The notes below the pieces were generated by a model, which did not search any database, had not been told where the DNA came from, and saw only the letters and a program-made list of their open reading frames with translations. Positions 3,694 to 55,561 of a stretch of DNA of 64,000 nucleotides are shown here, piece after piece; within the stretch, counting starts at the first letter, position 1; every line of letters starts with the position of its first letter. The DNA is from Eledone cirrhosa (lineage: Eukaryota). The translations under genes were made by a program, and so were the position numbers. The stretch covers positions 15,190,001 to 15,254,000 of the forward strand of contig OZ024758.1 in assembly GCA_964016885.1 (NCBI GenBank). Reading direction: 5' to 3'.

Positions 3694-3870
3694 CACGCTC
3701 GCACTCGCACACACGTGTGTATAAAGCTTATTAGAAGCACACACATGTGCTTCTAATACGCTTTATACACACACAAACGCAGAGGCTTGTAATGGACCTG
3801 TTATTATCTAAAGACATTTTTTTTCCAATTCCACCCCGCCCGTCTCTTCAGTCTATCTAATTTCTCATTC

Positions 3871-3910
3871 TTTCTGCTGATGAAGGACTAGCGTCCGAAA
3901 CGTTAAGACC
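3871..3910 (+). ncRNA. Minimal hammerhead ribozyme motif (Penelope-like), weak stem I
   Basis: CTGATGA (3877-3883), A, GGAC-tagc-GTCC, GAAA (3897-3900), CGTTA with palindromic AACGTT; a hairpin lies upstream at 3715-3771 and (TA)n flanks the unit. Confidence 0.6.
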
Positions 3911-3984
3911 CTCTTTCTGCTATATCATGCGTTAACCTAATATATACCTTCCAGATACTGTACTGATTGTGTTTCTGTTTACCT

Positions 3985-3989
<5 letters not shown>

Positions 3990-4035
<46 letters not shown>

Positions 4036-4045
4036 ATATATATAT

Positions 4046-4076
<31 letters not shown>

Positions 4077-4270
4077 ATATATATATATATATATTATATA
4101 TTATATATATATTATATATATATATATATTATATATATATTATATATATATATATATTATATATATATTATATATATATATATATTATATATATATTATA
4201 TATATATATATATTATATATATATATATAATATATATATATCATATATATATATATATTATATATATATA
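3990..4270. repeat. (TA)n-derived microsatellite
   Basis: Long interrupted TA tract; many similar tracts occur throughout the window. Confidence 0.95.
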
Positions 4271-4881
4271 TCATCATCATCATCATCATCAACGTTTAAC
4301 GTCCGTGTTCCACGCTTGCATGGGTTTGGACGGGGGTAGTCCCACTTGAGGCAAGAGTGATTGTCTTGCTCGCATAGGACTGTCTGGCAGGTTTTCTACA
4401 GTTGGATGCCCTTCCTAACACCAACCACATTTACAGTGTGGGTCTGGGAGGTTTTTACCGTGTTGCCTACACGGCCACATTACAGCGTGGACTGTGTGTT
4501 TTTTTGTCGTGACACCTACACGATCTCATTTGTTTCGGCCTCGATGGCGCGGCACCAACATAACTTTACATAGAACGGGGTGGTGTGGATCGGGTGATGG
4601 TGGTGGGACGGGGTGTATTTTGTTAGAGATGCCTACTGGCTGGAGTAGGTTTTACTATATATTTAGGTAAGGCGGGTCTTCTCTGTTACTGAGTACCGCC
4701 AAAGGTCTCGGTCCAGTGACATTGTCTTGGAGAGGTGTAAGTGTGTGATGTCGGAGTTTATCAGCTCGTCCCAGGTTTTTCTAGGTCTGCCTATTCCGTG
4801 ACTACCGTCTATCTTTATTGCCCTGCACTTTGTTATACAGCTATCGACTTTCATGCGCATCACGTGTCCATACCAACGTAG
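4271..4881 (-). mobile_element. 5'-truncated RTE LINE (ORF C-terminus, 3' UTR and (GAT)n tail)
   Basis: LRWYGHVMRM...GRPRKTWDELINSD...DRDLWR...* (4881-4663), then a 3' UTR ending GGACGTTAAACGTT(GAT)n; the same 3' end recurs at ~15213-15436, 16560-16710, 20148-20248, 47670-47897, 62685-62875, 63013-63220. Confidence 0.9.
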
Positions 4882-5005
4882 CTTGGGATCAGATGTTGTT
4901 TACTTCTCTCGAGTAAACAACATCTGATCCCTCTTATCTCTAATTTATATATATAATATATAATATATATATATATATTATATATATATTATATATATAT
5001 ATATA

Positions 5006-5280
5006 TGGCTTAGTGGTTAGAGCATTGGCCTTGCAATTGAAAGGTTGTGAGTTCAATTCTCAGACCGGGTGATGTGTTGTTTCCTTGAGCAAGACACTTT
5101 ATTTCACATCGCTCCAGTTTACTCAGCTGTAGAAATGAGATGATAGGGACCTCAGTCCCTATCATTCCACTGCAAAGTGGTCGTGGAGGTGCCACGGCAA
5201 AAAAAGCATCCAGCTGTAGAAATCAAGCCAGAATCAGTTCCCGTCCCACCCTTGCAAGCAGGAAAAAGCAGTCATAAAAT
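5006..5280 (+). mobile_element. SINE family B (tRNA head, CORE-like centre, RTE-like tail)
   Basis: A box TGGCTTAGTGG, B box GAGTTCAATTC, centre CCTTGAGCAAGACACTT..CAGTTTACTCAGCTGTAGAAATGAG. Confidence 0.85.
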
Positions 5281-5618
5281 TATGTGTGCTGGATGTACAA
5301 TCAGAATGTTGTGGGTTCAATTCCTGGGTTGTGTGTTGTGTTCTTGAACAAAACACTTCATTTCATGTTGCTCCAGTATACTCAGCTGAAAATGAGTACC
5401 AGTAATAGCTGGGGTTTAACCCTATGATGAACTGGATTGGTTTCTATGGCTGGATACCCTTCCTAACACCAACCACATTTACAATGTGTGTTGGGTGCTT
5501 TTTGTCGTACACTTACATGACCACTTATATCATATATATTCAAAATAGGGGGTTGCACAGTCAAAGACAATTGAAAAAACAACAGGAAGACACAGTTCCA
5601 TTTCCTCTAGAAATATAT

Positions 5619-5801
5619 ACAATGAAATTCTGTTATAACAAAATTCATGGGGTATAAAAAAAAATTTGTTGTAACAAAAAATGCTTTATAATGAGATTGG
5701 CCAAAATAAATTGTTTCTTTATTCCCTCAGGGATAGAAAAACATTTTTGTTATACTGAAAAATTCATTATAATGGTATTCATTATAGTGGAATTTTACCT
5801 G
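5619..5801. mobile_element. Tigger/pogo-like MITE (old)
   Basis: TA|CAATGAAATTCTGTTATAA ... TTATAGTGGAATTTTACCTG|TA: imperfect TIRs with TA flanks. Confidence 0.55.
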
Positions 5802-5996
5802 TATAAATAAATAAATATATATATAATGAGGTTAACAGGACTAGAATAAGGTTTCCCTGCTAGTACCAGTTGCATCTCAGCGTACTCAATAGGTAAGGCT
5901 ATGTATAAATCCCAGAGTAGACAAAGTTATTTGCCTCGATGCACATACATAAATGGGTACCATAAATTTATACCCGTACTTGAGTTGTTTATTACA

Positions 5997-6039
<43 letters not shown>

Positions 6040-6056
6040 GCAACATAAGGCAATTA

Positions 6057-6117
6057 TTTCATTTACCAGTGGTTTCTTGAAAGCAAAAAAATGTTGCTTT
6101 CAATCATCAGAATGAAA
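6057..6117 (-). ncRNA. Type I hammerhead ribozyme (mirror copy)
   Basis: Reverse complement: TTTCATT-CTGATGA-TTGAAAGCAA-cattttt-TTGCTTTCAA-GAAA-CCACTGG-TA-AATGAAA, with a perfect 10-bp stem II. Confidence 0.85.
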
Positions 6118-6181
6118 AAATCCTGGTGTATTTATTGACATTGGTTTTTAAAATCCAATGTCAATAAATACACCAGGATTT

Positions 6182-6242
6182 TTTCATTCTGATGATTGAA
6201 AGTAAAATTTTTTTGCTTTCAAGAAACCACTGGTAAATGAAA
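6182..6242 (+). ncRNA. Type I hammerhead ribozyme
   Basis: Stem I TTTCATT/AATGAAA; CTGATGA 6189-6195; stem II TTGAAAGT/GCTTTCAA; GAAA 6223-6226; stem III ACC-act-GGT; GUA triplet, predicted cleavage after 6235. Confidence 0.85.
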
Positions 6243-6331
6243 TAATTGCCTTATGTTTGTTTATTACATAACTATTAAGCTCTGTAACCTACATAGAGCA
6301 CTATTTTTTCCTGGACCTTTCTGACGGAATT

Positions 6332-6375
<44 letters not shown>

Positions 6376-6877
6376 CTCCAAACATTGTTACAATTTGAAG
6401 AAACTGAATATACCTTATTCTGTCTGTAAAACAACAGTTACTGGTTCTATATAAATATACAACACCTTTACCAAACTATAGTTTATTTATATATTTACTC
6501 AAGATTTCTATCTCTATTATTTTAAAAAGTTAGAAAAATACTTGTCGAATTTCTTTTTATTACTTTAAACATTTTTTTGACATAGTGGTTTGTTTTTGGT
6601 TTAGATAAAATAGAAATGTGATGTTTATATATTTTGTTTTTCCATTTGTTATAATCATAACATGAATTGAATGAATTTACAAATTTGGTATTTACATAAA
6701 CTTCTTGAAAATAATTTTTTTCATTTTTTTAATTTTTATTTTTTTATTTTTTACTTCTCTGTTCACCATCACCTCTCAATTTGAATACCTTTCTAAATGT
6801 CAAATTTTTGACAGAATTATGAAAGCTAAACATGCAATTTACTAATGTTACATATAAATATTATCATTATTATTATT

Positions 6878-7060
6878 TGGATTGGCAGTATTGGTAGAGG
6901 GTCGGACACCATGCTTTGACGCATAGTTACGACCCTTGCCATTCTGATTTCAAATCCCGCCGAGGTTAACTTTGCCTTTCATCCTTACGGGGGTCGATAA
7001 AATAAAGTACTAGTAATGCACTGTGTAATTGCTGGCCTTGTGCCAAAAGTAAAAACAATT
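6878..7060 (+). mobile_element. SINE family A (tRNA-derived, ~190 bp; more than 20 copies or fragments)
   Basis: A box TGGCAGTATCGG, B box GTTCAAATCC (family consensus), conserved centre AACTTTGCCTTTCATCCTTACGGGGTCGATAAAATAAAGTACCAG, ATT-rich tail. Other copies near 993, 7424, 8159, 9443(-), 11027-11630, 16722, 16882, 19957(-), 21720, 26698(-), 26934(-), 28500(-), 29031, 33951, 34100(-), 34935(-), 38430(-), 40436(-), 41736(-), 42207(-), 42961, 45360, 50661, 58475(-). Confidence 0.9.
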
Positions 7061-7533
7061 ATTATTATCATATAATACAAAAATTATGATGTACAGTATT
7101 AACCCTTTTTTTATTACCATATTTCTAATGAAAGACGCAGCATCTCTTTCAAATCGTTTTGCAAAATAAGCAAGAATTTTAAGAGATTATTAACCCCTTA
7201 GCATTTAAACCGGTCATATCCGGCCAGAATTCTTTCACGTCTTTCTTTTCAAACCGACCATAATGGACCACTCATACTTACATTAACCCTTTAGTGTTCA
7301 AACCAGCCAGAATTCTCCATCTTTTTCTGTTGAAACTGGCTGTAACTGGTCACCCCAACTGATGTTAAGGGATTGTTCTCAAAATAAATAACATCAAAAT
7401 CTCGTAGATTCGATATTATGTGAGGGCGGGGGATTGGCAGTATCGGTAGGTCGGACGCCATGCTTTGCAGCATAGAGTTACGCCCCTTTATAGTCTGAGT
7501 TGAATTCCCGCCGAGGTTCACTTTACCTTTCAT

Positions 7534-8050
7534 ACACATACAATCATATATATATATATACAGAAACATACACATACAGGCGTATCTATACACAAACATA
7601 CACATACAGGCATATATATATATACTCACACAAACATACACATACAGACACATATATATATATATATGTATATATATATAACATATGCATACAGGCATAT
7701 ATATATATATATATAACATATGCATACAGGCATATATATACGCAAACATACACATGCAGGTATATATATATATATACAGAAACATACACATACAGGCATA
7801 TATACACACAAACATGCACATAGCCATATACACATACACGCGAACATACACCTACAATCATATATACACAAACACACATAACATATATATACACAAACAC
7901 ACATAACATATATATACACAAACACACATAACATATATATACACAAACACACATAACATATATATACACAAACACACATAACATATATATACACACACAC
8001 ATAACATATATATACACAAACACACATAACATATATACACAAACACACAG
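7534..8050. repeat. CA/TA compound microsatellite with a ~24-bp higher-order unit
   Basis: Repeated ACACAAACACACATAACATATATAT-like units. Confidence 0.9.
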
Positions 8051-8350
8051 CCCTAATTACATGGGTTAGATGTTGTAGTATAAAATGTGAACATTGAAAA
8101 CAATATTTTGAAATAATGAGAATATTTATTATACAACAAGAATATTATTTAGAGAAGTTGGTGGACTGGCAGTGTCGGTAGAGCGTCGGACGCCATGCTT
8201 TGATGAGTTACGTCCCTTTACGTCCTGAGTTCAAATCCCGTCGAGGCTAACTTTGCCTTTCATCCTTACGGGGTCGATAAAATAAAGTACCAGTAATGCA
8301 CTGGGTAATTGCTGGCCTTGTGCCAAAAGTAGAAACAATTATTTAGAGAG

Positions 8351-8990
8351 ACAGTACATAATTATATACACATAGTATAGGTGTTATATATACAGTACAT
8401 AATTATATACACATAGTATAGGTGTTATATATACAGTACATAATTATATACACACAGTATAGGTGTTATATATACAGTACATAATTATATACACATAGTA
8501 TAGAAGGTATTATATATACAGTACATAATTATATACGCATAGTATAGAAGTATTATATATACAGTACATAATTATATACACATAGTATAGAAGGTATTAT
8601 ATATACAGTACATAATTATATACACATAGTGTTATATACACACAGCAAACAGTACATAATTATATACACATAGTATAGGTGTTATATATACAGTACATAA
8701 TTATATACACACAGTATAGGTGTTATATATACAGTACATAATTATATACACATAGTATAGAAGGTATTATATATACAGTACATAATTATATACGCATAGT
8801 ATAGAAGATTATATATACAGTACATAATTATATACACATAATATAGAAGGTATTATATATATACAGTACATATATATATACAGTACATAATTATATACAC
8901 ATAGTATAGAAGGTATTATATATACTGTACATAATTATACACATAGTATAGAAGGTATTATATATATACATACAGTATACAAGCTGTTAT
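8351..8990. repeat. ~41-bp minisatellite
   Basis: Unit ACAGTACATAATTATATACACATAGTATAG(AA)GGT(G/A)TTATATAT, about 14 copies. Confidence 0.9.
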
Positions 8991-9065
8991 ATACACACAC
9001 AACATACAAAGGATTATTTATACACACACACACAGTACACCAACTATTACTTACAAACTATATAT

Positions 9066-9312
9066 TATATACACGCAGCAAACAAGCTGTTATATACACG
9101 CAGCAAACAAGCTGTTATATACACGCAGCAAACAAGCTGTTATATACACACAGCAAACAAGCTGTTATATACACACAGCAAACAAGCTGTTATATACACA
9201 CAGCAAACAAGCTGTTATATACACACAGTAAACAAACTCTTATATACACACAGCAAACAAGCTGTTATATACACACAGCAAACAAGCTGTTATATACACA
9301 CAGCAAACAAAC
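9066..9312. repeat. 25-bp minisatellite
   Basis: Unit ACAC(G/A)CAGCAAACAAGCTGTTATAT, about 10 copies. Confidence 0.95.
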
Positions 9313-11788: not shown

Positions 11789-11794
<6 letters not shown>

Positions 11795-12311
11795 GAATAA
11801 AATAACAGGAGGCTGGACTGGTGTAAATCCTTGAAAAGTTTATTATACCATGATCATTTCAATGACCGGGTTCCATATGAATCCGGTGATATCATCAGGT
11901 ATTCGAAATATAACAAAGGAATATATAAAAATCCATGGGTCTGAAAATCAGAGACAGAGGACGACTGACAAACTAGCTGTTTTCACCTCGGTCAGTCGCC
12001 CTCTGATTTTCGGACCCATGGATTTTTATATATTCCTTTGTTATATTTCGAATACCTGATGATATCACTGGATTCATACGGAACCCGGTCATTGAAATGA
12101 TCATGGTATAATAAACTTTTCAAGGATTTACACCAGTCCAGCCTCCTGTTATTTTATTCATAATAATTAACTCCGTATTCGCACCACCAACTACACAAAC
12201 GAAGACGGCTGAACTGCACTACGTTGAGTACTTTCCATAATATTGCATCAAGATTGACCATACGGAATGACCAATTCTATCCGGTGGTGAACCAACAAAC
12301 TTAAATAAATG
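11789..12311. mobile_element. Fold-back Penelope-like element with hammerhead-like motif on both arms
   Basis: ~165-bp inverted arms (11789-11953 and 12001-12165); ATAC-CTGATGA(12056-62)-stem II-GAAA(12094-97)-TGATCAT-G-GTAT; unique tail to ~12311; (TA)n flanks. Confidence 0.75.
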
Positions 12312-15450: not shown

Positions 15451-15875
15451 TACGATATTAAACAAATGGAAACTATATTTATATTTATAAAACCATATTT
15501 ATTTTGTTATATATATTTCTGGGATATCATATTAAAAATATGTTATGCCTTCCTCAGACAAAATACAATACATAAGCTGTTTTATAAATAATTAGTGACA
15601 TACCTTGTGATAATGCAACTTCCTTTTAAAAAGTTGATTTTTTTTTTAAAAGGAAGTTGCATTATCACAAGGTATGTCACTAATTATTTATAAAACAGCT
15701 TATGTATTGTATTTTGTCTGAGGAAGGCATAACATATTTTTAATATGATATCCCAGAAATAAATATAGTTTCCATTTGTTTAATATCGTAAACCTACTCC
15801 AGAAACTGTTGAGTGCTTTTATATCAGTTATAAAATATTTACTCGTTGTAACCCAACAATCTTAAATAAAACTTT

Positions 15876-15879
<4 letters not shown>
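15451..15879. mobile_element. Fold-back Penelope-like element with hammerhead
   Basis: Inverted arms ~15451-15632 and 15642-15790, unique tail 15791-15879, (TA)n on both sides. Confidence 0.8.
15501..15564 (-). ncRNA. Type I hammerhead ribozyme
   Basis: Reverse complement: ATTTTGT-CTGAGGA-aGGcATAaCATATT-ttt-AATATGaTATcCCa-GAA-ATATATAT-A-ACAAAAT; 7-bp stem I, palindromic stem III, AUA triplet. Confidence 0.75.
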
Positions 15880-15915
<36 letters not shown>

Positions 15916-15916: not shown

Positions 15917-16318
15917 GAAGGTACATGGCTTAGTGGTTAGAGCATTGGGCTTCCAATCGAAAGGTTGGGAGTTTATTTCTCGGACTGAGTGATGTGTTGT
16001 TTCCTTGAGCAAGACACTTTATTTCACATTGCTCCAGTTTACTCAGATGTAGAAATGAGATAGTGGAATGATAGGGACTCGGGTCCCTATCATTCCACTG
16101 CAAAGTGGTCGTGGAGGTGCCATGGCTAAAAAAAGCACCCAGCACTCACTGTAAATGAGGTTGGTGTTAGGAAGGGCATCCAGCTGTAGAAATCGAGCCA
16201 GAATCAGTTCCCGTATGAGCAAGACAAGGTCAGCCGACTGGACACTGCCCACAACAGGACAACCCGTCTAACCCATGCTAGTGTGGAAGAAGGGACGTAA
16301 AACGACGATGATGATGAT
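15917..16318 (+). mobile_element. SINE family B with an alternative, longer RTE-like 3' end
   Basis: Same head and centre as the 12333 copy but ends ..ACCCATGCTAGTGTGGAAGAAGGGACGTAAAACGAC(GAT)n. Confidence 0.85.
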
Positions 16319-16331
16319 ATATATCTTTTGT

Positions 16332-16436
16332 CGCATCACCAGTCTGAGGAGCAGATCGATACTGGAATCGACTCCATAATTCCTATGGGTTACCTTGAGC
16401 CAATCCTCTGTGAAATCTGCGTAACAGGTCGATGCG
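16332..16436 (+). ncRNA. Hammerhead ribozyme motif with extended stem II
   Basis: Stem I CGCATC-A-CC-a-GT pairs with AC-a-GG-T-c-GATGCG; CTGAGGA 16344-16350; stem II base GCAGA/TCTGT; GAAA 16412-16415; GUA triplet at 16421-16423; stem III weak. Confidence 0.6.
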
Positions 16437-17079
16437 CAATAAATATTTATAAATATTCATAAATAAACGAAACTTCCTTGTTTTTTCTATTTTATATATA
16501 TATATATTTATTTTATATATATATATATTTTTTTAAATTTTATTTCTATTATATATATATCATCATCATCGTTTAACGTCCGTGTTCCACGCTTGCATGG
16601 GTTTGGACGGGGGTTTTCCCACTTGAGGCAAGAGTGGTTGTCTTGCTTGCATAGGACTGTCTGGCGGGTTTTCTACAGCTGGATGCCCTTCCTAACACCA
16701 ACCACATTTATATATTATTTCTAAATCCTGCCGAAGTTAACTTTGCCTTTCATCCTTACGGGGTCGATAAAATAAAGTACCAGTAATGCACTGGATAATT
16801 GCTGGCCTTGTGCCTAAAGTAGAAACAATTATTTCTATTATATATATATATATATATATTTATTATTTCTATTATATATAGAGGGCGGTGGATTGGCAGT
16901 ATCAGTAGAGGGTCGGACGCCATGCTTTGACGCATAGTTACGTCCCTTGCCATTCTGAGTTCAAATCCCGCCAAGGTTAACTTTGCCTTTCATCCTCATG
17001 GGGGTCGATGAAATAAAGTACCAGTAATGCACTGGGTAATTGCTGGCCTTGTGCCAAAAGTAGAAACAATTATTTCTAT

Positions 17080-17109: not shown

Positions 17110-17110
<1 letters not shown>

Positions 17111-17484
17111 TTAGGGATTGTAACATCTAGTTACTGTAGGTTCACGAGACTGAGCACCTGATGCATAGTTTCCACTTGGTATATTGGTGTAGTACTAAGT
17201 AGAGTGTAATGCTACTAATAAAAAGGACGAAGTGTTAAATCTTCATTACGTTTATTGAGGTGTGATGGGCGTTTCGTGATCGATCTGGCCCAACTCTGGA
17301 ATCAAAAGCTCGTCGGACTAAGAGAATCCTTCTGTCATTACCATAACTGAAGTCTGACGAGCTTTTGATTCTAGAGTATGGCCAGATCGATACAGTTCGA
17401 ACCTTGAGCTGATCAATTGTGAAACATGTGTCACACCTCAATAAACATAATGAAGACATATAACACTTCACCCTTTTTATTATT
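17110..17484. mobile_element. Diverged fold-back element with degenerate hammerhead, related to 16332-16445
   Basis: Arms ~17216-17319 and 17351-17482; CTGACGA 17354-60 ... GAAACATGTGTC 17421-32; shares CAGATCGATAC, ACCTTGAGC, GTGAAA and AATAAA in order with the 16.3-kb motif. Confidence 0.6.
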
Positions 17485-17624
17485 AGTGTGTGAGTGAGTG
17501 TCTGTGTGTATGTATATATATATATATATATATGGAGCGATGCTGTGCTGAATAAGACCCGTCCCACCCTTGCAAGCAGGGAAAAGCGGACGTAAAATGA
17601 TGATGATGATGATATAAAACCTGT

Positions 17625-18043: not shown

Positions 18044-18059
18044 TATATATATATATATT

Positions 18060-18184
18060 TATTAAAATAACAGATTAAAGTTTAAGTAAAGAATTGCTGC
18101 TTTCACCCTTAACGAGTTTCAGAAGATCCCGTTAAGGGTGAAAGCAGCGATTCTTTGCTTAAACTTTAATCTGTTATTTTAATA
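18060..18184. mobile_element. Short fold-back element with degenerate hammerhead core
   Basis: ~55-bp inverted arms between TA tracts; CAGAAGA-TCCC-gttaa-GGGT-GAAA; a single-arm copy lies at 55352-55420. Confidence 0.6.
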
Positions 18185-18199
18185 TAGTTTTATATATTT

Positions 18200-18240
<41 letters not shown>

Positions 18241-18314
18241 CCTTATCGAACCCCTTTGGATTTTAGTCTTCACATTTATTATTATTACTATATATATATA
18301 TATATATATATATA

Positions 18315-26697: not shown

Positions 26698-26910
26698 GTT
26701 TCTATTTTAGGCACAAGGCCAGCAAATACCCAGTACATTACTGGTACTTTATTTTATCGACCCCGTAAGGATGAAAACAAAGTTAACCTCGGCGGGATTT
26801 GAACTCAGATCATAAAGGGATGTAACTCTATGCTTCAAAGCATGGTGTCCGACTCTCTACGGATACTGCCAATCCACCGCCCTAGTGGATTGGCAGTATC
26901 CGTAGAGAGC
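26698..26910 (-). mobile_element. SINE family A with 20-bp TSD and a fold-back copy of its 5' end
   Basis: TSD AATAGTGCTTAATAAATATT at 26678-26697 and 26913-26932; 26885-26909 is the reverse complement of the SINE 5' segment. Confidence 0.8.
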
Positions 26911-33930: not shown

Positions 33931-34615
33931 CAAGTCACAACATTAATAGAGAGGGTGTCAGATTGGCAGAAATGTTAGAGCACCAGACAAAATGTTTTGT
34001 AGTATTTAGTTAAGTTCTTCACATTCTGAGTTCAAATCCCACCAAGGTTAACTTTGCCTTTCATCCTTCCAAGGTTGATAAAATAAATCATCGGTAATAA
34101 TTGGTTCTACTTTTGGCACAAGGCCAGCAATTACCCAGTGTATTACTGGTACTTTATTTTATCGACCCCGTAAGGATGAAAGGCAAAGTTAACCTCGACG
34201 GGATTTGAACTCAGACCGTAAAGGGACGTAACTATGCTGGAACGCATGGCGTCCGGCCCTCTACCGATACTGCCAATCCACCGCCCTTAAACCACCACCA
34301 CCAATAATAATAATAATAATGATGATAATTGTTTCTACTTTAGGCACAAGACCAGCAATTTGAAAGTGAGGGGAAAGTCGATCTAGATGCTAAAGGGTTA
34401 AATACCAGATAAATATTGAGACCTTTCCAAATTCTTACATATTTAAAATTTATGGGCACAGTTTTTCATTAGAAATATGGAACCAAAAGAGTTAAGGCCA
34501 AATATATAAGTTATGAAATAAATAGTTTTATATTTCTGTGGCAATTCTCCAATATTATTACTTGTGTTATGCCAAGTCAATGATGGAGTGTCTCTACAGT
34601 CACTTTTCATCAGAC

Positions 34616-41575: not shown

Positions 41576-43745
41576 TGTAATTAGAACCATATGGTGGTGT
41601 CATGCAGGTAGCCGAGCAGATAGCTAAAATGAAACTACAAAATCTTAACTATAATAAAGTAAGGAGTGCGGGACTGCGTCCAGAATATATTTTTTTATCC
41701 CGTTTGTAAAATAAGTTGGATTACTTTGAATAAATAATTGTTTCTATTTTTGGCACAAGGCCAGCAATTATCCCAGTGTATTACTGGTACTTTATTTTAT
41801 CGACCCCGTAAGAATCAAAGGCAAAGTTAACCTCGACGGGATTTGAACTCAGATCATAAAGAGACGTAACTCTATTCGTCAAAGCATGGCGCCCGACCCT
41901 CTACCGATAATGAATGAATATTACATAATTTGTGCTAAATTTCGTGGCTTTTGATAAAATATATTTTATAGCTTATTTAAAGATCTTTAAAATTCAATTC
42001 TTTAAAATTATCAAATGTCAACACTTCGGGTTAGCGGCCGTTATATTATAAGTACCAGTAATGTTATAAGTACCAGTAATGTTATAAGTACCAGTAATGT
42101 ACTGGGTAATTGCTGGCCTTGTGCCTAAAGTAGAAACAGTTATATTATAACACTTATAATCGCATATATTTCCCTCGATAATTTTCTCCTAATGCAGTTT
42201 ATATATAATTGTTTCTACTTTTGGCACAAGGCCAGCAATTACCCAGTGTATTACTGGTACTTTATTTTATCGACCCCCGTAAGGATGAAAGGCAAAGTTA
42301 TAATGTTTTTTTTTTTTTTTAATATCATGGATTACTGATTACAGAAGACAATGTAACATAGGCTTTGTTTAATTTCTGTGTATATTGTCAATTACGATGT
42401 TATTTGATGTATCATATTTGATGTATCATATATTGTATATATATTTGTGTATAATATCAATATACACACTACACATGCTAGCAAGAAACCACGCGTACGG
42501 TGGTTTTTCTGCTAGTGTATTTAATTACTTTACCTACACATGCCCACTTAATAAACTTTACACACACAAACTAATGAGGAAGGTTCTATGTGGTGCAGTT
42601 GAGTTGCTAGAAATAGCATTTAAACCGGCCATAACTGTCCAGAATTCTCTCACCTTATTGTGTTCAAACTGGCTGAAACTGGCCACTCATACTGATATTA
42701 GGGTATTGTTCTGAAAATAAATAATATCATCTCATAGATTCGATATTATTTGAGATAACTGTGAGTTGAAGTGTTTACCATGAAAATACAATAGTATATG
42801 TAGAATAATGGAAATGCTAAAGGTTTAAGTAATATTCTTGTCTTTATAGAAAACACACAACTTCATACCATATATACTCGAATATAAGCCAAGGAATCTG
42901 TACTATACATGCACCTTTGATGAGTTATAGTGCACCTGAGCACTGTCCGCAATAATTTTCATCGGTAGAGGGTCGGACGCCATGCTTTGCAGCAAAGAGT
43001 TACGGCCCTTTATGGTCTGAGTTCAAATCCTGCCGAGGTTAACTTTTCCTTTCATCCTCACGGGGGTCGATAAATTAAAGTACCAGTAATGTACTGGGAT
43101 AATTGCTGGCCTTATGCCAAAAGTATAAATAAAAATATTTTTAAATAAACAGCTTTGCGTTATAGAACTGGTGACATTTTCAGGTGGTTTGGTATTAAGA
43201 GTTAATCATGTCTGTTTCATCAGAGCTAACCTGAAGCTAAACGACAACTCTGCACACACTTTACCATAAACATAGACGAAGCACTGTTTATACATTTAAA
43301 CAACTGCTAACTTTTTAAGCTGAGAAATTCTATATAACCTATTTAATACTCCAGCTGAGAGTGGTCTTCAAATAAAAGAGTTTACATAAAGTCTAGGATT
43401 TTGAACATGAAATATATATTAACTCAACCATATGGTGAATAATCTCTTCTTTATTTATATTAGTCACAGTCTACTAAGATATGATCTTTGTGAAATATTG
43501 TAGTATTAGATTAAAAACATCAATATTTTATGTGTTGCAGTCCTAATGTTGTTTTGTACTTTATCTCAACAGTATAGAAACATTCATAGAAAGGTTCCAT
43601 GTTCCGCTGAGTTAATCCCTTAGATACAGAGTCTGATATTAGATCAGTCAATATGTCAATATGATCAACCCACCGAATGATTGTAAAATAATATGAATAG
43701 GTAAAATAACTTGACTTTGTTATTGTTTTCATTGTTAAATTGATA

Positions 43746-44405: not shown

Positions 44406-44632
44406 TAGAAGTGGCTACACAACAGTTAGTTCACCATAGCAAGAACAATTGTTTCACCTTAGCGGATCCTCAGCTCGTAATGGACGTATAACCATGTCCA
44501 TTACGAGCTGAGGATCTGCTAAGGTGAAACAATTGTTCTCGATATGGTGAACTAACTGTTGTGTAACCACTTCTACCTAACTCGTCCCATGGACTGAGTG
44601 CTCTACCACTACGGATATTACCTTCCAGTGTT
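44406..44632. mobile_element. Fold-back Penelope-like element with hammerheads on both strands
   Basis: Arms 44406-44486 and 44495-44575, tail to ~44632, between (TA)n and (CT)n/(TA)n. Confidence 0.8.
44504..44541 (+). ncRNA. Minimal type I hammerhead ribozyme (mirror copy at 44440-44477 on the - strand)
   Basis: CGAG-CTGAGGA(44508-14)-TCTgctaaGGT-GAA-ACAATTGT-T-CTCG: stem I CGAG/CTCG, palindromic stem III, GUU triplet. Confidence 0.8.
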
Positions 44633-44659
44633 CTCTCTCTCTTTCTGTCTTTCTCTCTT

Positions 44660-45850: not shown

Positions 45851-45934
45851 GTAGGGTCCCATTTCTGGGTTAAAGGCACCAGTTAAGGTATTGTCAGCCA
45901 TTGAAAAGAAATATATACTATATATATATATAAC

Positions 45935-46322
45935 AAAATAAAGATCCGAAGGCATGGTATAAATTTAAACAACTGTTGAAGGCATGGTATAAATTTCCAA
46001 TCATTTTAATCATGACACATGTTTCAATAAGGGATAGATCGATCGTGTGGTCATGATCTCTGATCTCTGGAATTGGAGATATACAAAAGCGTGGAGAACT
46101 GAGATAAGTGATAATCAATCATGACCACACGATCGATCTATCTCTTATTGAAACATGTCGTGATTAAAATGATTGGAAATTTATACCATGCCTTCGGATC
46201 TTTATTTTTTTATACAAATACTCCGTTTTACATCATCTAGCTGTTCTCTTAAATGGAATTGGAGAACTTAATATTGCTAACAAAAGTTTATTGGACCGTA
46301 TGACACAACCAATAATACACCT
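45935..46322. mobile_element. Fold-back element with degenerate hammerhead
   Basis: Arms ~45935-46057 and 46118-46209; CTGAGA(46099)-long stem II-GAAACATGTC (46150-59); tail shares ACTCCGT and TT(G)GACC(G/A)TA with the 12.2-kb tail. Confidence 0.6.
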
Positions 46323-46472
46323 GTAGTAGTAGTAGTAGTGGTAGTAGTAATTATAAGTTGAGCCAACTTATGCAGCTTCATATGCAAATGAGATTAATCA
46401 CCTCATTTACACAGACGAGAAAAGTATATATTCTCAGCTGTCTTCTAGTCCGAGCAGTCGCAAGTGGCGGGA

Positions 46473-46525
46473 GGGACCGTCCTGACGAAGGCCAGTTAAG
46501 CCTGAAATGCATAGACGGTTGTCCC
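46473..46525 (+). ncRNA. Compact type I hammerhead ribozyme (retrozyme/PLE-like)
   Basis: ACCGTC-CTGACGA(46482-88)-AGGC-cagttaa-GCCT-GAA-ATGCAT-A-GACGGT; 6-bp stem I extendable to GGGA/TCCC with a bulge; AUA triplet, predicted cleavage after 46513. Confidence 0.88.
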
Positions 46526-46632
46526 CCTTGCTTCTGCTGGACATCACCAGAGGGCGTTAGCCCCCCTGGTGTTTGCCTAGCTACGGATTCCTAAAACTGT
46601 ATTTCTTTGGAGATTCAAAATATGTATATATG

Positions 46633-49508: not shown

Positions 49509-49835
49509 GAGGAGGAAGGTAATGGCCATTGACTGCGTGGTTACCTGCTTGGTCAGCTGGTTGATTGGTCATAGGTTTAACCTTTTTGGTCTTGAAACAA
49601 GCATTGAGATAGCACCAAGTGTATTTGTTGGCAGCCATTAGCTGCAAAATGGACAGTCAGTTATTGAAACACCTGCTCTCCAATGCCAGCAATAGATCTA
49701 GTTTTCTTTCAGCTGAAACAAGACCTTAAAACTAGATATCCTTGTATCTGATGCAGTACATGTCAAGAATAAGCCAGTTGCTGAGCTTACTAGAAATAGC
49801 AACCAAATCCCTCTCAAATTACTCCCCCTTTTTCA

Positions 49836-50230
49836 TAATAATAATAATAATAATGAAATTATTGTGTAAAGTGCTCAGGTGCACTACAACTCATCAAAGG
49901 TGCATGTATGGTACATAGAATAATATACAAATGTCAGGGAAGTGAATAGTGTATGAGTCATGATATACATGTGTGTATGGAGGGGGAACATTAGGTGTAG
50001 TGTTGGCGAACAACTGATGCAGGTAGTTTGTTCCATGGAGGTTTTAAAGGATGCAGTGTCTCGACAGCTAACAACTGATGCAGGTAGTTTGTTCCATGCT
50101 TCAGCAACTCAACTCTGAGCATGAAAAAATGTTTCCGAAAGTCATGGGAGCTGTGCTGTTTTCTGACTTTGTGGGCATGCCCACGTGTGTTAGACACCTG
50201 GAAATCAAAAAGGTACTCAAGAGTCAGTCA
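49836..50230 (-). mobile_element. CR1-like LINE 3' end
   Basis: SNTRGHAHKVRKQHS..DFRKHFFMLRV / WNKLPASVV matches the CR1-type TRGH..K..R..FF..RV..WN.LP motif; (TTA)n tail at 49836-49853. Confidence 0.8.
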
Positions 50231-50789
50231 CATTTGGTGTAATCCTGTATATGCAATACCTACGATAAGCAGGGAAGCACAGGATCTTCATGGTTGTGAT
50301 ATCTTGGTTGACCTGTGGTTAAAAAACATCAACAAGAAATAGCAACCAACCAACCAAATTGCTCTCAAATTAGTCCCCCTTTCTCATCTTCAAAAGAGTG
50401 AGTTACATTTGATGGTTTTATCCTCTATATGCAATGCTTGAGAGAAGCACAGGATCTTCATGGCTGTAATGCCTTCGTTGACCTGTGGTTAAAGAACATT
50501 AACAACCATTCATTTTTTAATTTTTTTCCTTTATTCTTCTCAGTCATGAGACTGGTGATACTAGGGAGTTAGTTGATCATCTTGACCCCAGTACTTTTCA
50601 AACCTTGTTCTTATGTTATCAGTCCCTTTCGGTAGAACTGTTAGAGTAAACACACTCAAAGGCAGCGAATTGGCGATCATTAGAAGGTCGGATAGAATGC
50701 TTTGCAGTGGTATTTGTTTCAGCTCTCTGGCCGCTGAGTTCAAATCCTGCCGAGGTCAAGTACTGGGGTAGATTCTTTCTCTATATCTT

Positions 50790-51521
50790 TCTCTCACTTC
50801 CATTCTCTCTCTCTCTTCCATTCTCTCTATCTCTCTCTTCCATTCTCTCTCTCTCTCTCTTCCATTCTCTCTCTCTCTCTCTTCCATTCTCTCTCTCTCT
50901 CTCTCTCCCATTCTCTCTTCCATTCTCTCTCTCTCTCTCTTCCATTCTCTCTCTCTCTCTCTCTTCCATTCTCTCTCTCTCTCTCTCTTCCATTCTCTCT
51001 CTCTCTCTCTTCCATTCTCTCTCTCTCTCTCTTCCATTCTCTCTCTCTCTCTCTTCCATTCTCTCTCTCTCTCTTCCATTCTCTCTCTCTCTCTCTCTTC
51101 CATTCTCTCTCTCTCTCTCTCTTCCACTCTCTCTCTCTTCCACTCTCTCTCTCTTCCACTCTCTCTCTCTTCCACTCTCTCTCTCTCTCTCTCTTCCACT
51201 CTCTCTCTCTCTCTCTCTTCCACTCTCTCTCTCTCTCTTCCACTCTCTCTCTCTTCCACTCTCTCTCTCTCTCTCTCTTCCACTCTCTCTCTCTCTCTTC
51301 CATTCTCTCTCTCTCTCTTCCATTCTCTCTCTCTCTCTTCCATTCTCTCTCTCTCTCTTCCATTCTCTCTCTCTCTCTTCCATTCTCTCTCTCTCTCTTC
51401 CATTCTCTCTCTCTCTCTCTTCCATTCTCTCTCTCTTCCATTCTCTCTCTCTCTCTCTTCCATTCTCTCTCTCTCTCTCTTCTCTCTCTCTCTTCTCTCT
51501 CTCTCTCTCTCTCTCTTCCAT

Positions 51522-51552
<31 letters not shown>

Positions 51553-51636
51553 CTCTCTCTCTCTCTTCCATTCTCTCTCTCTCTCTCTTCCATTCTCTCT
51601 CTCTCTCTCTCTTCCATTCTCTCTCTCTCTCTCTTC

Positions 51637-51710
<74 letters not shown>

Positions 51711-51742
51711 CTCTCTCTCTCTTCCATTCTATCTCTCTCTCT

Positions 51743-51780
<38 letters not shown>

Positions 51781-51840
51781 CTCTCTCTCTCTCTTCCATT
51801 CTCTCTCTCTCTCCCCCATTCTCTTTCTCTCTCTCTCCTT
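50790..51840. repeat. (CT)n / TTCCA(T/C) polypyrimidine tract
   Basis: ~1 kb, almost purine-free on the + strand. Confidence 0.97.
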
Positions 51841-53314
51841 CTCTGGAAGAAATCTGTTCTACTCAGACCTAGAGAAAAAGTGGACTCCACCAGGTTTTAA
51901 AATGCTCCAGAAATGCCCTATGTCAATACGGTACCCTAAGGACCCCTTCAGGAGTTACAGGGACTAAAACACGCACGCACGCACGCACATGCACACACAC
52001 ACGTATTTACTCCTAGTCAATTTTATTCAATCATTTCAGTATATATTTATTTATTTTAATGACTCCATCAGTATTAAGAGCTAAAAGTACTATAGTTGTG
52101 TATATCTTAGAATAGGTACACTGTATCCCTGAATTTCATAAAAGTGGACTAAAAGGGCTGGAGCCCCTATGATGAGCATGAAAGCCATCATGGGGCCTAC
52201 ATGGTTAATCTCTCCTTAAGTGGCGAAAACAGCCTTAAAATGACTGTTGGTATTTTTGATATTCAAATTTTAAATTCTAAAATTTGTTTTTCAACTTCTT
52301 TTATTACTTTATGAATATTCTAAAATGTGTGTATATATACAATGTATGTATGTGTGTGTGTGCATGTCTGTCTGTCTGTCTGTGTGTGTCTGCCTGCCTG
52401 CCTGCCTGTCTATGTGTGTGTCTGTGTAAAAAAAAAAACTTTTGAAATACTAATTTCTATCATAATGAAAATTGTTTAAGAAAAATTTTAATTGAAAAAT
52501 AAAGAAAATATTGACTTATAATATATTCACAAAATGAAATGGTCGTTTCAGTACTTTTTGTTTTCATTCCGAACCTATTATTTTTGTGAAAGCAAGAACT
52601 TTTGCTTTTCATAAAATTTTTCTTTCTATTAAAGAATATTTTAACCTTGAGCATAATATATTTCTATTATTTTGTTGTTGTTGTTTCAAGAATTAAACAA
52701 AAGTCATGAAAATACTTCTGAAGTTAACAAAGAAAGACAAAAAGAATCAATGGAAGAATTTGATCATTTGTATTCAATGCAGAAACATCTTTTTCTTGAA
52801 TTGCTTTGTGGTTCAATTCTCAAAAGAGAAAGTCTTACATGAAAGATATATATATATATATATATATAGATAGAGAGAGAGAGGCACATGGCCTAGTGGT
52901 TAAAGCATTGGGCTTGCAATCGAAAGGTTGCGAGTTCAATTCTCAGACCGGGTGATGTGTTGTTTCCTTGAGCAAGATACTTTATTTCACATTGCTCCAG
53001 TTTACTCAGCTGTAGAAATAAGATGATAGGGACTGGGGTCCCTATCATTCCACTGCAAAGTGATTGTGGAGGTGCCACGGCAAAAAAGCACCCAGCCCAC
53101 ACTGTAAAGTGGACGTGTAGGTGCCATGGAAAAAAAGCACCCAGCACTCACTGTAAAGTGGACGTGTAGGTGCCATGGAAAAAAAGCACCCAGCACTCAC
53201 TGTAAATGAGGTTGGTGTTAGGAAGGGCATCCAGCTGTAGAAATCAAGCCAGAATCAGTTTCCGTCCCACCCTTGCAAGCAGGGAAAAGCAGACATAAAA
53301 TGAAGATGATGATG

Positions 53315-53347
<33 letters not shown>

Positions 53348-54670
53348 CACACACCTACCATTAATGGCTAACTAGGTGTAGGTATGGCTGTGTAAAGGAA
53401 TTGATTGTTTAGTTTCAATGTGTGGCACCTTGGGTAAGTTTCTTCTATTACAGCCTTAGGTTGACCAATGCCTTCTGATTAAAATTTGATAGATGTAAAC
53501 CAGTCATGGGCAACATGCAGTCTGCAAAGTTTTCTGAATGGCTCGCCTAAGTCACCTAAGTGAAATCTTTCTGATTTTTTTACCCCAAATTTTCAGTCGT
53601 AATTTATCTTTACGATCATGTTTACGATCGAGTAAAACAACGTGTACAAATTCTGAAGAAACAAATCAAAACAACCTGAGTTACCGCTCATTTTTTTAAT
53701 GTGGGTACGAATGTAAATTAGCACTTGTGGCCGGCCTGTTAATGAGCCATGTCATGGCACCTAAACACCGATCTAACAGAGTGAGCTGCGCTAGTTTGAT
53801 TTAGTTTCAATGTATGACACCTTGGGCAAGTTTCTTCTACTATAGCATTAGGTTGACCAATGACTTCTCTTTAAAATTTGATAAATGTAAACTATGAAAC
53901 CCTTTCATTCATTACCCTCATCATCATCATCATTTGATGTCTATTTTTCCACTCTTGCATAGGTTAGATGGGTTGTCTTGTTATGACATAAGTTGGGTCC
54001 GGTGACCATGTCTTGCTCATACAGATTTGTAATTTTGCTTGGTTTCTGTGGCTTGATGGCCTTCTTAACCCTAACTGCATAGACTGAGTGCTTTTCATCG
54101 TGGCACCTAAACGCCAATCTAACAGTGAACTGGGCTAGTTTGATTTAGTTTCAATGTATGGCACCTTAGGCAAGTTTCTTCTACTATAGCCTTAAGTTGA
54201 CCAATACCTTCAGATGGGGTGTTGGTCCAAACACAGAGGAGCCAAACTCCTACTGTCATTTCCCCCATCTCTCACTGTTGTGAGCAAATAAGGTCCCATG
54301 TGCTGGCAGACAGAATGGAGAAGGCTTTATATATTGTTCAGTTATTAACTGTTAGGAAAGTGTTGGACATTTCATTCTGAATCACATGTATTTCCTTTGT
54401 CATTTTAATGGATATTCCAAAAATTCTATATCAACTTGGTACTACTACTGTTGTGGTTGTTGCTGATGTTGTTGTTGTTTATTTTTATGACTATATTTCC
54501 GAGATAATGAAAGAAATATATTATTGTTGTATCCTCTGTAATATAATCGATAGCTATATAATCTTGTGTGTGTGTATGTATGTATATACATGTCTGTGTA
54601 TATGTGTGTGTATATATATATATATATATCTCTGTGTGTGTGTCAGTGGCTGTGTTAGTGTGTGTGTGAG

Positions 54671-54701
<31 letters not shown>

Positions 54702-54870
54702 CAGTGGCTGTGTTAGTGTGTGTGTGTGTGTATAATCTGTGAGTATATGTGTGTGTGTGTGTGTTTAGAGAAGACATGACAACCTGATTAAGATGAAAGC
54801 ATGTTATCATTAATTACGAACCTAACACTACCACATGTGTATATACAGTTAAACAATGTATATGTATGTA

Positions 54871-54974
54871 CAGGGTGTGTGTGTGTGTGTGTCCCAAACA
54901 ACAACAAAAAAATGTATACACATACTTATTAGAATGCTGTTGAAGTATGTATATATTTTTTGGGGGACACCCTG
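54871..54974. mobile_element. Tc1/mariner-type MITE with a (GT)n expansion inside the left TIR
   Basis: TA|CAGGGTGT(GT)nCCC ... GGGACACCCTG|TA. Confidence 0.7.
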
Positions 54975-55561
54975 TATTGTTGAGAGAGATTGAGGGAGAT
55001 GCTGTGCTGAAAAGGACTTGTTCAGTCCATGCAACCATGGTAAAACAGACATAAAATCAATGATGATGATGAGAGAGATGTATATGAAAATTTATATGAA
55101 CATATATAATACATTTATATACAATAAACACATGAGTGGGGGGTAACTCGCTGTCAAAGAAAAATATTTTTTTTTGTAATGAAAAAATTTTTTTTCTCTA
55201 TTCTCCTCTGAATATATCACAAAGTTGCCGGTATGTTCTGAGAATGTCATACACCAGCACTGGTACAAGTTGCCGGTATGTTCTGAAAATAAATATCAAA
55301 ATCTCATAGATTCGATATTATGTGAGATAATTATGTGGGATAAAGCCTTTACAGAAGATCCCGTCAAGGGTGAAAGCAGCGATTCTTTGCTTAAACTTTA
55401 ATCAGTTATTTTAATAAATATATATATAAATGTAATCTGAGTTTTTTGAATATTAATAACATTCGATTCATTTGCAATTATGCAAACAAGCCTCAATTTT
55501 ATAGCCATGTCAGTAGAATGAACCCTTCATTCTTGCTCTTGTGCTGGCATGTTTCCTTTTT

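What the first reader, a model, noticed from the sequence alone, without database searches (positions are those of the whole stretch)
3715..55420. A family-diverse set of self-cleaving, fold-back hammerhead retroelements associated with (TA)n tracts
Seen in sequence: about 11 short loci (3.9, 6.1, 12.0, 15.5, 16.4, 17.3, 18.1, 44.5, 46.1, 46.5, 55.4 kb) are mostly unalike in primary sequence yet contain the hammerhead core CUGANGA-stem II-GAAA-(often palindromic stem III)-UH or a degenerate version of it. Seven share one architecture: (TA)n, inverted arm, short spacer, arm, unique tail, microsatellite. This places a ribozyme motif on each strand pointing outward. Established knowledge: Penelope-like elements carry minimal type I hammerheads in their pseudo-LTRs, often leave inverted pLTR ends on truncation and favour AT-rich or microsatellite targets; minimal hammerheads with palindromic stem III can cleave as dimers. 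Inference: these are many independent truncated or non-autonomous PLE-derived families, about one per 6 kb, each able to give a long dsRNA hairpin or a self-cleaving RNA whichever strand is transcribed. No RT or GIY-YIG ORF is present in the window.
Basis: partly seen in the sequence, partly recalled or inferred. Interest (0 to 1): 0.9.

Follow-up and report, generated by a model that had tools for sequence, protein, structure and literature searches.

The report
Truncated Penelope-like retroelement ends with hammerheads
These short fold-back sequences are the cut-off tail ends of known jumping genes (Penelope-like elements) that carry a predicted self-cutting RNA motif and sit in TA repeats; they are ordinary in kind but very abundant in this animal genome, and their paired short and long ends likely record two separate copying starts per insertion.

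Summary
The motifs are real: 6 strict type I hammerhead sites (4 loci) against a mean of 0.06 in 100 shuffles. The 11 loci belong to 10 repeat families. Five families join RT/endonuclease ORFs elsewhere in the genome: four with Hydra-clade motifs (15.5, 18.1/55.4, 44.5, 46.1 kb) and one Neptune-like (3.9). The 46.5-kb locus is a ~324-nt head-to-tail, retrozyme-like unit; no ORF was found for four families. Hammerheads in pseudo-LTRs, inverted 5'-truncated copies, one-sided tails and (TA)n targets are all published, for Hydra elements too, and the scan met this pattern before on other DNA. The window is average for the genome: 89 strict sites in a 0.99-Mb sample, about 270,000 genome-wide. Two points add value. 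Fold-backs pair one short and one long end (33 of 34 classifiable unselected cases), which fits two-site priming and sits badly with simple snap-back. One young family with full open ORFs carries a fixed U4A core. The claim that every locus can self-cleave is not supported: only two loci have strict motifs on both strands, and the hairpin is predicted to bury them.

The parts
3791..3988 (+). 3' end of a Neptune-like PLE family, solo copy; hammerhead core 3877-3904 with palindromic ACGU stem III; first stem I pair broken in this copy; ends in (TA)n
6042..6149 (-). inverted arm of the 6.1-kb family, strict hammerhead 6110-6064; stops about 17 nt before the family's short end
6150..6338 (+). forward arm plus ~64-nt tail to the long end; strict hammerhead 6189-6235; no ORF found upstream in the copies examined
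11789..11953 (-). inverted arm of the 12.0-kb family ending at the short end; hammerhead 11898-11849 with G17
12001..12304 (+). forward arm plus ~138-nt tail; hammerhead 12056-12105 with G17 (family mostly A17); family body is at least 1.5 kb, no ORF seen
15451..15632 (-). inverted arm (short end) of a Hydra-type PLE pseudo-LTR; strict hammerhead 15557-15508, 8-bp stem I
15643..15884 (+). forward arm plus ~96-nt tail; a deletion removes stem III and the cleavage site
16319..16496 (+). solo older copy ending at the short end; core 16344-16423 with a long stem II insert and weak stem I; no ORF link established
17110..17319 (-). 17.3-kb family, arm with the ~102-nt tail (long end on the left); decayed core CCGACGA at 17316
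17321..17487 (+). 17.3-kb family, arm ending at the short end; core 17354-17432, weak stem I
18055..18114 (-). inverted arm (short end) of a second Hydra-type PLE; begins inside stem II, so no core
18116..18288 (+). forward arm plus ~87-nt tail; hammerhead-shaped motif 18120-18160 with family-fixed U4A core (CAGAAGA)
44406..44485 (-). inverted arm (short end) of a third Hydra-type PLE; strict hammerhead 44473-44444
44485..44634 (+). forward arm plus tail running into (TC)n; strict hammerhead 44508-44537, palindromic ACAAUUGU stem III
45923..46069 (-). inverted arm of a fourth Hydra-type PLE with an internal duplication; first core box absent
46101..46322 (+). forward arm plus tail; starts inside the first core box, so no intact hammerhead
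46350..46631 (+). one unit of a ~324-nt head-to-tail, retrozyme-like non-coding family, ending at the short end; strict hammerhead 46482-46513, 7-bp stem I, palindromic AUGCAU stem III
55349..55421 (+). solo short-end copy of the same family as 18.1 kb; U4A core 55352-55392, 5'-truncated just upstream of the core

Best explanation
The loci are 5'-truncated insertions of ten repeat families in (TA)n tracts, five of them the ends of endonuclease-bearing Penelope-like elements and the other five likely mobilised by the same machinery, and each fold-back was likely made by two cDNAs primed at two fixed internal sites of the element RNA and joined head to head. Shown: each fold-back family ends at two fixed places downstream of the hammerhead, a short end S and a long end L, 40-139 nt apart. 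In full-length parents the S-L 'tail' runs on into the 5' UTR and start codon of the next tandem unit. Fold-backs nearly always have one S and one L end, and the inversion point varies. Inferred: the RT/GIY-YIG protein nicks both strands of a TA tract, primes one cDNA at S and one at L on uncleaved RNA from one donor, both stop early, and their 3' ends are joined. The hammerhead is a passenger of the pseudo-LTR. In a read-through transcript of a fold-back it is predicted to be locked in a long hairpin, so these copies would more likely give dsRNA than self-cleave. Identity as PLE ends about 0.95; the two-primer mechanism about 0.7.
For: ORF links: 15.5 kb (inverted pLTR, pLTR-ORF-pLTR in L164, near-whole ORF in L161); 44.5 kb (RT and EN pieces in L170; an ORF piece upstream in 17 loci); 18.1/55.4 kb (9 of 10 fetched loci with a whole 709-713-aa open frame from the family start); 46.1 kb (ORF between the two arms in L356 and L358); 3.9 kb (L353, with L298 and L199 spanning ORF to end). 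The predicted fold of the 15.5-kb parent matches reverse transcriptases including TERT. Hydra motifs RWR, DKT/NKT, CxCx5C, CxxC, CxH present and the CCHH cysteines absent (defined in PMC8557442 section 11). Two end classes in 8 of 10 families in the end histogram; the short end of the 46.1-kb family shows. End pairs: 114 S+L, 3 S+S, 2 L+L, 24 with an unclassified end, of 143 clusters; outside the loci fetched for that family 33, 1, 0, 10 of 44 (binomial p 4e-9 for 33 of 34). At 90 clean S+L junctions the S arm reaches further 5' in 44, the L arm in 21, within 5 nt in 25; in 14 the L arm is tail only. The two arms share minor variants more than random partners (1.05 against 0.23 per 100 nt, 118 pairs). 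(TA)5+ lies within 350 nt downstream of 70 of 89 strict sites against 28% of random positions. PMC11167929 (parts 1-2 of 4 read) shows a PLE protein nicking and extending both strands, starting at two internal sites that bound the tail, and using uncleaved RNA.
Against: No ORF was found for 6.1, 12.0, 16.4 and 17.3 kb (20-30 loci each of the best 40 scored), so their PLE origin rests on architecture. The 3.9-kb family shows one end class and no inverted partner among 40 hits. 24 of 143 clusters have an end that fits neither class, some from BLAST over-extension into TA. 12 of the 14 tail-only cases come from one family, L181 is counted twice, and later deletion could mimic them. In the 18.1 and 46.1 families the two arms differ as much as random partners do (5.66 against 4.74; 6.35 against 6.45 per 100 nt). 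Shared variants could also come from conversion between arms. The tails here are mostly longer than the 30-40 bp in the papers read. The GIY-YIG call for the Hydra-type ORFs rests on motifs: Pfam gave no family for 5 of 5 pieces and the listed fold matches were all polymerases. No phylogeny was built.
Confidence: 0.85

Rival explanations
1. The inverted arm arises by self-priming (snap-back on the cDNA or on an antisense RNA), and S and L are staggered endonuclease cuts on the hairpin. This is close to the self-priming proposal in PMC3846280.
For: The arms share minor variants. 25 of 90 junctions are near-perfect palindromes and 32 of 90 show an overlap of 2 nt or more. A staggered cut on a hairpin also predicts one S and one L end. 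PMC3846280 (passages read) infers self-priming from palindromic junctions.
Against: A hairpin of fixed polarity predicts that the same arm is always the longer one; both orders are common (44 against 21). It cannot give arms that do not overlap (14 tail-only cases). The same 18.1-family junction occurs with S and L swapped (L174, L190 against L184, L187).
Confidence: 0.2
2. The fold-backs are non-autonomous hairpin elements that move as whole units, like MITEs.
For: Several 18.1-family loci on different contigs share one junction (L184, L187; L191, L192, L193). Junctions in the 6.1 and 44.5 families cluster near the query start.
Against: Junction positions spread over hundreds of bases within families. 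The shared junctions sit on short microhomologies and appear with the ends swapped. The queries select for copies truncated like the window copy. Many copies have no inverted arm.
Confidence: 0.07
3. The loci are kept by selection as ribozyme or hairpin regulators of host transcripts.
For: About 90 strict motifs per Mb would put many inside introns. Dimer folding gives the active-type intermolecular stems for 46.5, 44.5+ and 6.1+.
Against: The window copies show ordinary decay (deletions, G17, broken pairs). The density equals the genome average. A young family spread with a U4A core. In fold-backs the hairpin is predicted to out-compete the ribozyme fold.
Confidence: 0.05
4. The motifs are chance matches in AT-rich DNA, or the fold-backs are assembly artefacts.
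For: With one core mismatch and loose stems, shuffles give 4.9 sites on average against 19 observed, so some loose hits are chance. Rfam listed no hammerhead family among the 150 matches shown.
Against: Strict sites 6 against 0.06 and 89 against 1-3. Stem I, not used in selection, is >=4 bp in 23 of 31 distinct arm pairs against 1.95 (max 9) in 2000 partner shuffles. The arms differ by several percent and end at different fixed sites, which an artefact would not give.
Confidence: 0.01

Closest known systems
Hydra clade of C-terminal EN+ Penelope-like elements (Craig et al. 2021, PMC8557442; Hydra-1_Obim, Penelope-13_HM)
   Same: Single RT-EN ORF with RW[KR], DKT, CxCX5C, CxxC and CxH motifs and no CCHH; type I hammerhead near the 3' end; (TA)n targets. 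Penelope-13_HM is listed with a 5'-truncated inverted copy and a hammerhead on both strands (supplement part 2).
   Different: The paper found few Hydra families outside cnidarians and one in a cephalopod. Here at least four parent families and Hydra-type coding pieces over 23 kb of 990 kb. Units are 3.2-3.7 kb against 'generally <3 kb'. One family has a U4A core; none of the motifs in the supplement part read has it.
Minimal and palindromic-stem-III hammerheads of metazoan PLEs (Cervera and de la Pena 2014, PMC4209133)
   Same: Type I motifs in pLTRs, many dissimilar families per genome, mostly solo, some pairs 100-700 bp apart on opposite strands; palindromic helix III predicted to act as a dimer; low activity in vitro.
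   Different: About 2.7e5 strict motifs estimated here against 4,000-9,000 in the vertebrate genomes named there (different descriptors). Several families here have long stem II inserts or a true stem III hairpin.
PAc, Poseidon element of Anolis (Frangieh et al. 2024, PMC11167929)
   Same: Two internal start sites bound the tail, both target strands are nicked and extended, uncleaved RNA is the template, AT-rich targets.
   Different: That work found no difference in start site between strands in vitro and, in the parts read, did not count end pairing in genomic fold-backs. Here the tail lies in the 5' UTR, not inside the ORF, and is 40-139 nt.
Non-LTR retrozymes (Cervera and de la Pena 2020, PMC7229834; Li et al. 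2026 preprint 10.64898/2026.07.22.740005)
   Same: The 46.5-kb family is a non-coding ~324-nt head-to-tail unit with a type I hammerhead; other tandem arrays of 310-490 nt occur in the sample.
   Different: It occurs as dispersed partial tandems and fold-backs with the PLE short/long end signature, not long arrays. Circular RNA was not shown.
Neptune (or Nematis) clade PLEs
   Same: The 3.9-kb parent has a Cx4CxxC linker and two cysteines between the GIY and YIG strands.
   Different: Clade assigned by motif only. This family shows one end class and few fold-backs.

Membership tests
EN+ Penelope-like elements | Single ORF with telomerase-like RT and C-terminal GIY-YIG endonuclease | tested here: met
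   In parents, not in the window: 709-713-aa open frames; RT fold with TERT among the matches; YIG/YVG and invariant R, E, N. The EN call is by motif. Met for 5 of 10 families; no ORF found for the other 5.
EN+ Penelope-like elements | Partial tandems forming pseudo-LTRs | tested here: met
   pLTR-ORF-pLTR in L164 and L364, L365, L366, L370, L372.
EN+ Penelope-like elements | Inverted 5'-truncated copy at the 5' end | tested here: met
   7 window loci and 143 divergent clusters in the held loci.
EN+ Penelope-like elements | Tail present at only one end of the insertion | tested here: met
   114 S+L, 3 S+S, 2 L+L, 24 unclassified of 143. Not seen in the 3.9-kb family.
EN+ Penelope-like elements | Type I hammerhead motif in the pseudo-LTR | tested here: met
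   The commonest core among copies is canonical in 8 of 10 families; decayed in 17.3 (CCGACGA 5, CTGACGA 4 of 24); U4A in 18.1.
EN+ Penelope-like elements | Target-site duplication | not tested
   Insertions lie in (TA)n, where a duplication cannot be told from the tract.
Hydra clade PLEs (parents of 15.5, 18.1/55.4, 44.5, 46.1 kb) | RWK and DKT motifs at the N-terminus | tested here: met
   RWR and SDKT in the 15.5 parent, RWR and SNKT in the 18.1 parent; N-termini of the other two were not held.
Hydra clade PLEs (parents of 15.5, 18.1/55.4, 44.5, 46.1 kb) | CxCX5C linker, no CCHH, CxxC before the conserved E and CxH after N | tested here: met
   All four motifs as expected in L161, L364, L067 and L357; the L358 piece is broken at the linker.
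Hydra clade PLEs (parents of 15.5, 18.1/55.4, 44.5, 46.1 kb) | Insertion into (TA)n | tested here: met
   70 of 89 strict sites against 28% of random positions.
Hydra clade PLEs (parents of 15.5, 18.1/55.4, 44.5, 46.1 kb) | Generally shorter than 3 kb | tested here: inconclusive
   Units of about 3.2 kb and 3.7 kb, with 3' UTRs of 0.9-1.2 kb; the paper states this as a tendency.
Hydra clade PLEs (parents of 15.5, 18.1/55.4, 44.5, 46.1 kb) | Placement in the Hydra clade on an RT tree | not tested
   No reference PLE proteins were fetched and no tree was built.
Neptune/Nematis PLEs (parent of 3.9 kb) | CX2-5CxxC linker and CCHH cysteines between GIY and YIG | tested here: met
   CSRSHCNTC and CxxC inside the GIY-YIG strands in L353; Neptune and Nematis were not told apart.
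Non-LTR retrozymes (46.5-kb family) | Non-coding tandem unit of 150-450 nt with a type I hammerhead | tested here: met
   ~324-nt unit preceded by the tail of an upstream unit; two hammerhead regions in tandem in L003 and L023.
Non-LTR retrozymes (46.5-kb family) | Expressed as circular RNA | not testable with these tools
   Needs RNA data, which were not available for this stretch.
Type I hammerhead ribozymes | Three stems around the conserved core, with covariation | tested here: met
Type I hammerhead ribozymes | Self-cleavage after UH | not testable with these tools
   Needs in vitro assays; PMC4209133 reports low activity for related motifs and PMC11167929 protein-assisted activity.

The most novel reading that the evidence does not exclude
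This genome holds a very large Hydra-clade expansion with on the order of 270,000 intact-looking hammerheads. Its insertions obey a strict rule of one short and one long end, a genomic record that the element primes the two target strands at two different RNA sites. One of its most recently spread autonomous families keeps the whole hammerhead fold with a U4A core, either a new natural active variant or a sign that the fold, not cleavage, is what the element needs.
Probability: 0.35. Interest if true: 0.6.

Novelty: new member of a known kind. Interest (0 to 1): 0.36.

Why it matters
The kind of element is known. The value is as material for open questions on Penelope-like elements: how inverted ends and one-sided tails form, and whether the hammerhead must cut. 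This genome gives thousands of young insertions per family, open full-length ORFs and mapped short and long ends, so priming sites can be predicted and tested in vitro. The U4A family is a natural test of ribozyme dispensability. If many fold-backs are transcribed by read-through, they would be a large source of perfect dsRNA hairpins; this is untested.

Tried and rejected
Rfam scan at E<=10: no hammerhead family among the 150 matches listed of 196; hits were microRNA-type hairpins and weak tRNA heads. Pfam on 5 ORF pieces: none; on 10 proteins only weak RVT_1 (3) and GIY-YIG (1) below the curated cut-offs, plus unrelated weak hits. PDB by sequence: nothing at E<=10, one unrelated hit at E 0.22 with the profile. 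Expression: no RNA holder listed. Laying contigs of 3 runs of unrecorded kind showed tail-like loose ends before 46350 and a few opposite-strand joints, but these runs may be the assembly's own sample and say nothing on expression. ORF links for 16.4 kb (L354) and 17.3 kb (L355) were considered and dropped: the ORF pieces lie beyond unrelated sequence or outside the fold-back. I first read the four parents as Neptune and the 3.9-kb parent as Poseidon from memory; the motif definitions in PMC8557442 reversed this to Hydra and Neptune-like, so the clade names in my two notebook entries are outdated. The shared junction in the 18.1 family suggested a mobile fold-back unit; rejected as above. First-look candidate numbers (130-3,223 per DNA query) are not copy numbers and were not used as such. 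Literature searches for a natural U4A core and for hammerheads in cephalopods found no paper on these points in the listings; section 8 of PMC3088659 does not name U4A in its text, but its Figure 5 could not be seen, and most subscription papers are outside the library.

Full report
Setting. The window is G000:C19:15190001-15254000 in a 3.0-Gb animal assembly. It is AT-rich and dense in microsatellites and SINE-like repeats. The repeat landscape looked octopus-like to me; that is a recalled impression that guided the paper searches and was not tested.

Observation. All 11 loci are there. A strict type I descriptor finds 6 sites at 4 loci against a mean of 0.06 in 100 shuffles of 200-nt blocks; allowing G17 gives 8 against 0.09; one core mismatch gives 12 against 1.5 and the loosest setting 19 against 4.9 in 30 shuffles. 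Seven loci are fold-backs with arms 67-97% alike. Only 6.1 and 44.5 kb have strict motifs on both strands. The others are decayed or truncated on one or both arms. The window has no PLE coding sequence.

Families. Ten DNA searches in the genome each returned 40 scored copies; I held 20 or 30 loci of each. The 18.1 and 55.4-kb loci are one family. Among copies found by similarity alone the commonest core is canonical in eight families, decayed in 17.3, and CAGAAGA in 58 of 67 copies of 18.1. So most defects in the window are private decay, but U4A is the family state.

Parents. The 15.5-kb family is the pseudo-LTR of an element with a ~750-aa ORF, seen as inverted pLTR, pLTR, ORF, pLTR in L164. 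The 44.5-kb family follows RT and EN pieces in L170. The 18.1-kb family follows an ORF with at least 150 genomic matches at 95-98% identity; 9 of 10 fetched loci hold the whole 709-713-aa frame open, and every intact core seen in these loci reads CAGAAGA. The 46.1-kb family encloses ORF pieces between its arms in L356 and L358. The 3.9-kb family runs into RT and EN in L353, and L298 and L199 share that span. The model of the 15.5-kb parent (mean pLDDT 85) matches reverse transcriptases, TERT among them. The first four parents carry the motifs that define the Hydra clade in PMC8557442 (section 11 read; test); the fifth has the Neptune/Nematis linker. For 6.1, 12.0, 16.4 and 17.3 kb no ORF was found; 12.0 has a non-coding body of at least 1.5 kb. 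The 46.5-kb family is a ~324-nt unit whose copies are mostly preceded by the tail of an upstream unit.

Are the motifs real hammerheads? I took 99 evenly spaced 10-kb stretches (one of 100 asked for did not exist). They hold 89 strict sites against 1-3 in five shuffles, in 29 similarity clusters and 62 insertion events, 11 of which have strict motifs on both strands. The window's 6 sites per 64 kb equal this average. The estimate is about 270,000 sites genome-wide (bootstrap 197,000-348,000). Choosing sites by core, palindrome and UH only, stem I is >=4 bp in 23 of 31 distinct arm pairs against 1.95 on average (max 9) in 2000 partner shuffles, with C-G, G-C, U-A and A-U all used. Cleavage itself was not tested.

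Ends. Eight families show two sharp 3' ends in the histogram and the short end of 46.1 shows; they lie 40-139 nt apart. In the two parents with a held 5' region the tail continues into the 5' UTR and start codon. Of 143 divergent clusters, 114 pair a short with a long end, 3 are short-short, 2 long-long and 24 have an unclassified end; outside the loci fetched for the family in question the counts are 33, 1, 0 and 10 of 44. With longer natural references, 125 clean junctions give 92 S+L, 1 L+L and 32 with an unclassified end; of 90 S+L cases with both 5' ends inside the reference, the short-end arm reaches further upstream in 44, the long-end arm in 21, and 25 are within 5 nt; in 14 the long-end arm is tail only (12 from one family, L181 counted twice). 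Arms share minor variants 4.5 times as often as random partners overall, though in two families they differ as much as random partners.

Mechanism. Shown: two fixed ends, their pairing, variable junctions, TA targets, parents. From the literature: PMC11167929 (parts 1-2 of 4 read) shows both strands nicked and extended, two internal start sites bounding the tail, and insertion from uncleaved RNA. Inferred: one cDNA starts at each site, on opposite target strands, and the two are joined head to head. Snap-back is the main rival (PMC3846280, passages read); it fits shared variants and palindromic junctions but not both arm orders or non-overlapping arms. Both arms usually run through the cleavage site into the core, which also points to uncleaved templates. 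Whole fold-backs fold into one hairpin (-105 to -320 kcal/mol for the five folded), whereas isolated arms of 46.5, 44.5+ and 6.1+ give dimer folds with intermolecular stems I and III. Read-through of a fold-back would therefore likely give dsRNA, not cleavage.

What is known. PMC4209133 (parts 1-2 of 4 read) describes minimal and palindromic-helix-III hammerheads in pLTRs, many families per genome, and pairs 100-700 bp apart on opposite strands. PMC8557442 (sections 3 and 11, passages, supplement search and part 2 of 59) describes inverted 5'-truncated copies, a tail at one end, and Hydra elements with hammerheads in (TA)n, including one from Octopus bimaculoides and one with an inverted copy. 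PMC7229834 (passages) and the 2026 preprint (part 1 of 5; its supplements are closed) cover tandem retrozymes, up to 120,000 copies in axolotl. PMC13282606 (passages) counts Penelope-like families in an octopus and does not use the words hammerhead or ribozyme. PMC3088659 (passages, section 8) covers core variants. The scan itself lists 358 findings with 'hammerhead Penelope' in at least 29 genomes, none noted in this genome, and one similar fold-back judged ordinary.

Verdict. New members of a known kind. The identification is firm. The extras are the scale, the counted short/long end rule and the U4A family. I found none of these three in the papers read or in searches, which cover open-access text only. 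Interest 0.36.

Noticed in passing
L219, L285, L289 (random sample): Tandem arrays with one strict hammerhead per unit: 310 nt x4 plus an inverted copy, 311 nt x2 and x4 on opposite strands, about 482 nt x7; retrozyme-like.
   Followed up: no
random sample L214-L312: 11 sites pass the descriptor with a U3-A8 core, the covariant described in Schistosoma PLEs; one occurs twice. No shuffle control was run.
   Followed up: no
window 46068-46100: The spacer of the 46.1-kb fold-back is a 33-nt exact piece of the family's own tail in forward orientation, missing from the forward arm, which suggests a template jump or rearrangement.
   Followed up: no
window 46322-46350: The 46.5-kb unit follows the 46.1-kb element after a short (GTA)n run; PLE ends of different families often nest in one another's TA tracts in the fetched loci.
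   Followed up: partly
window about 5.0, 12.3, 15.9, 23.8, 37.8, 44.0, 52.9 kb: Copies of one SINE-like repeat, 75-95% alike, four with weak tRNA-model hits; several sit directly beside the hammerhead loci in the same TA tracts.
   Followed up: no
window 33961-34278, 42086-42262, 57791-57891, 26853-26909, 16062-16099, 4885-4931, 3715-3772: Other inverted pairs and short palindromes without a hammerhead; the larger ones look like oppositely oriented SINE-like copies.
   Followed up: no
L166:197-2977: An open 927-aa frame of a LINE-type element with AP endonuclease and RT (RTE-like by recalled motifs).
   Followed up: no
L166:6239-8070: The 12.0-kb family has a long non-coding body, itself folded back over about 400 nt, with no ORF over 130 aa in L166.
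   Followed up: partly
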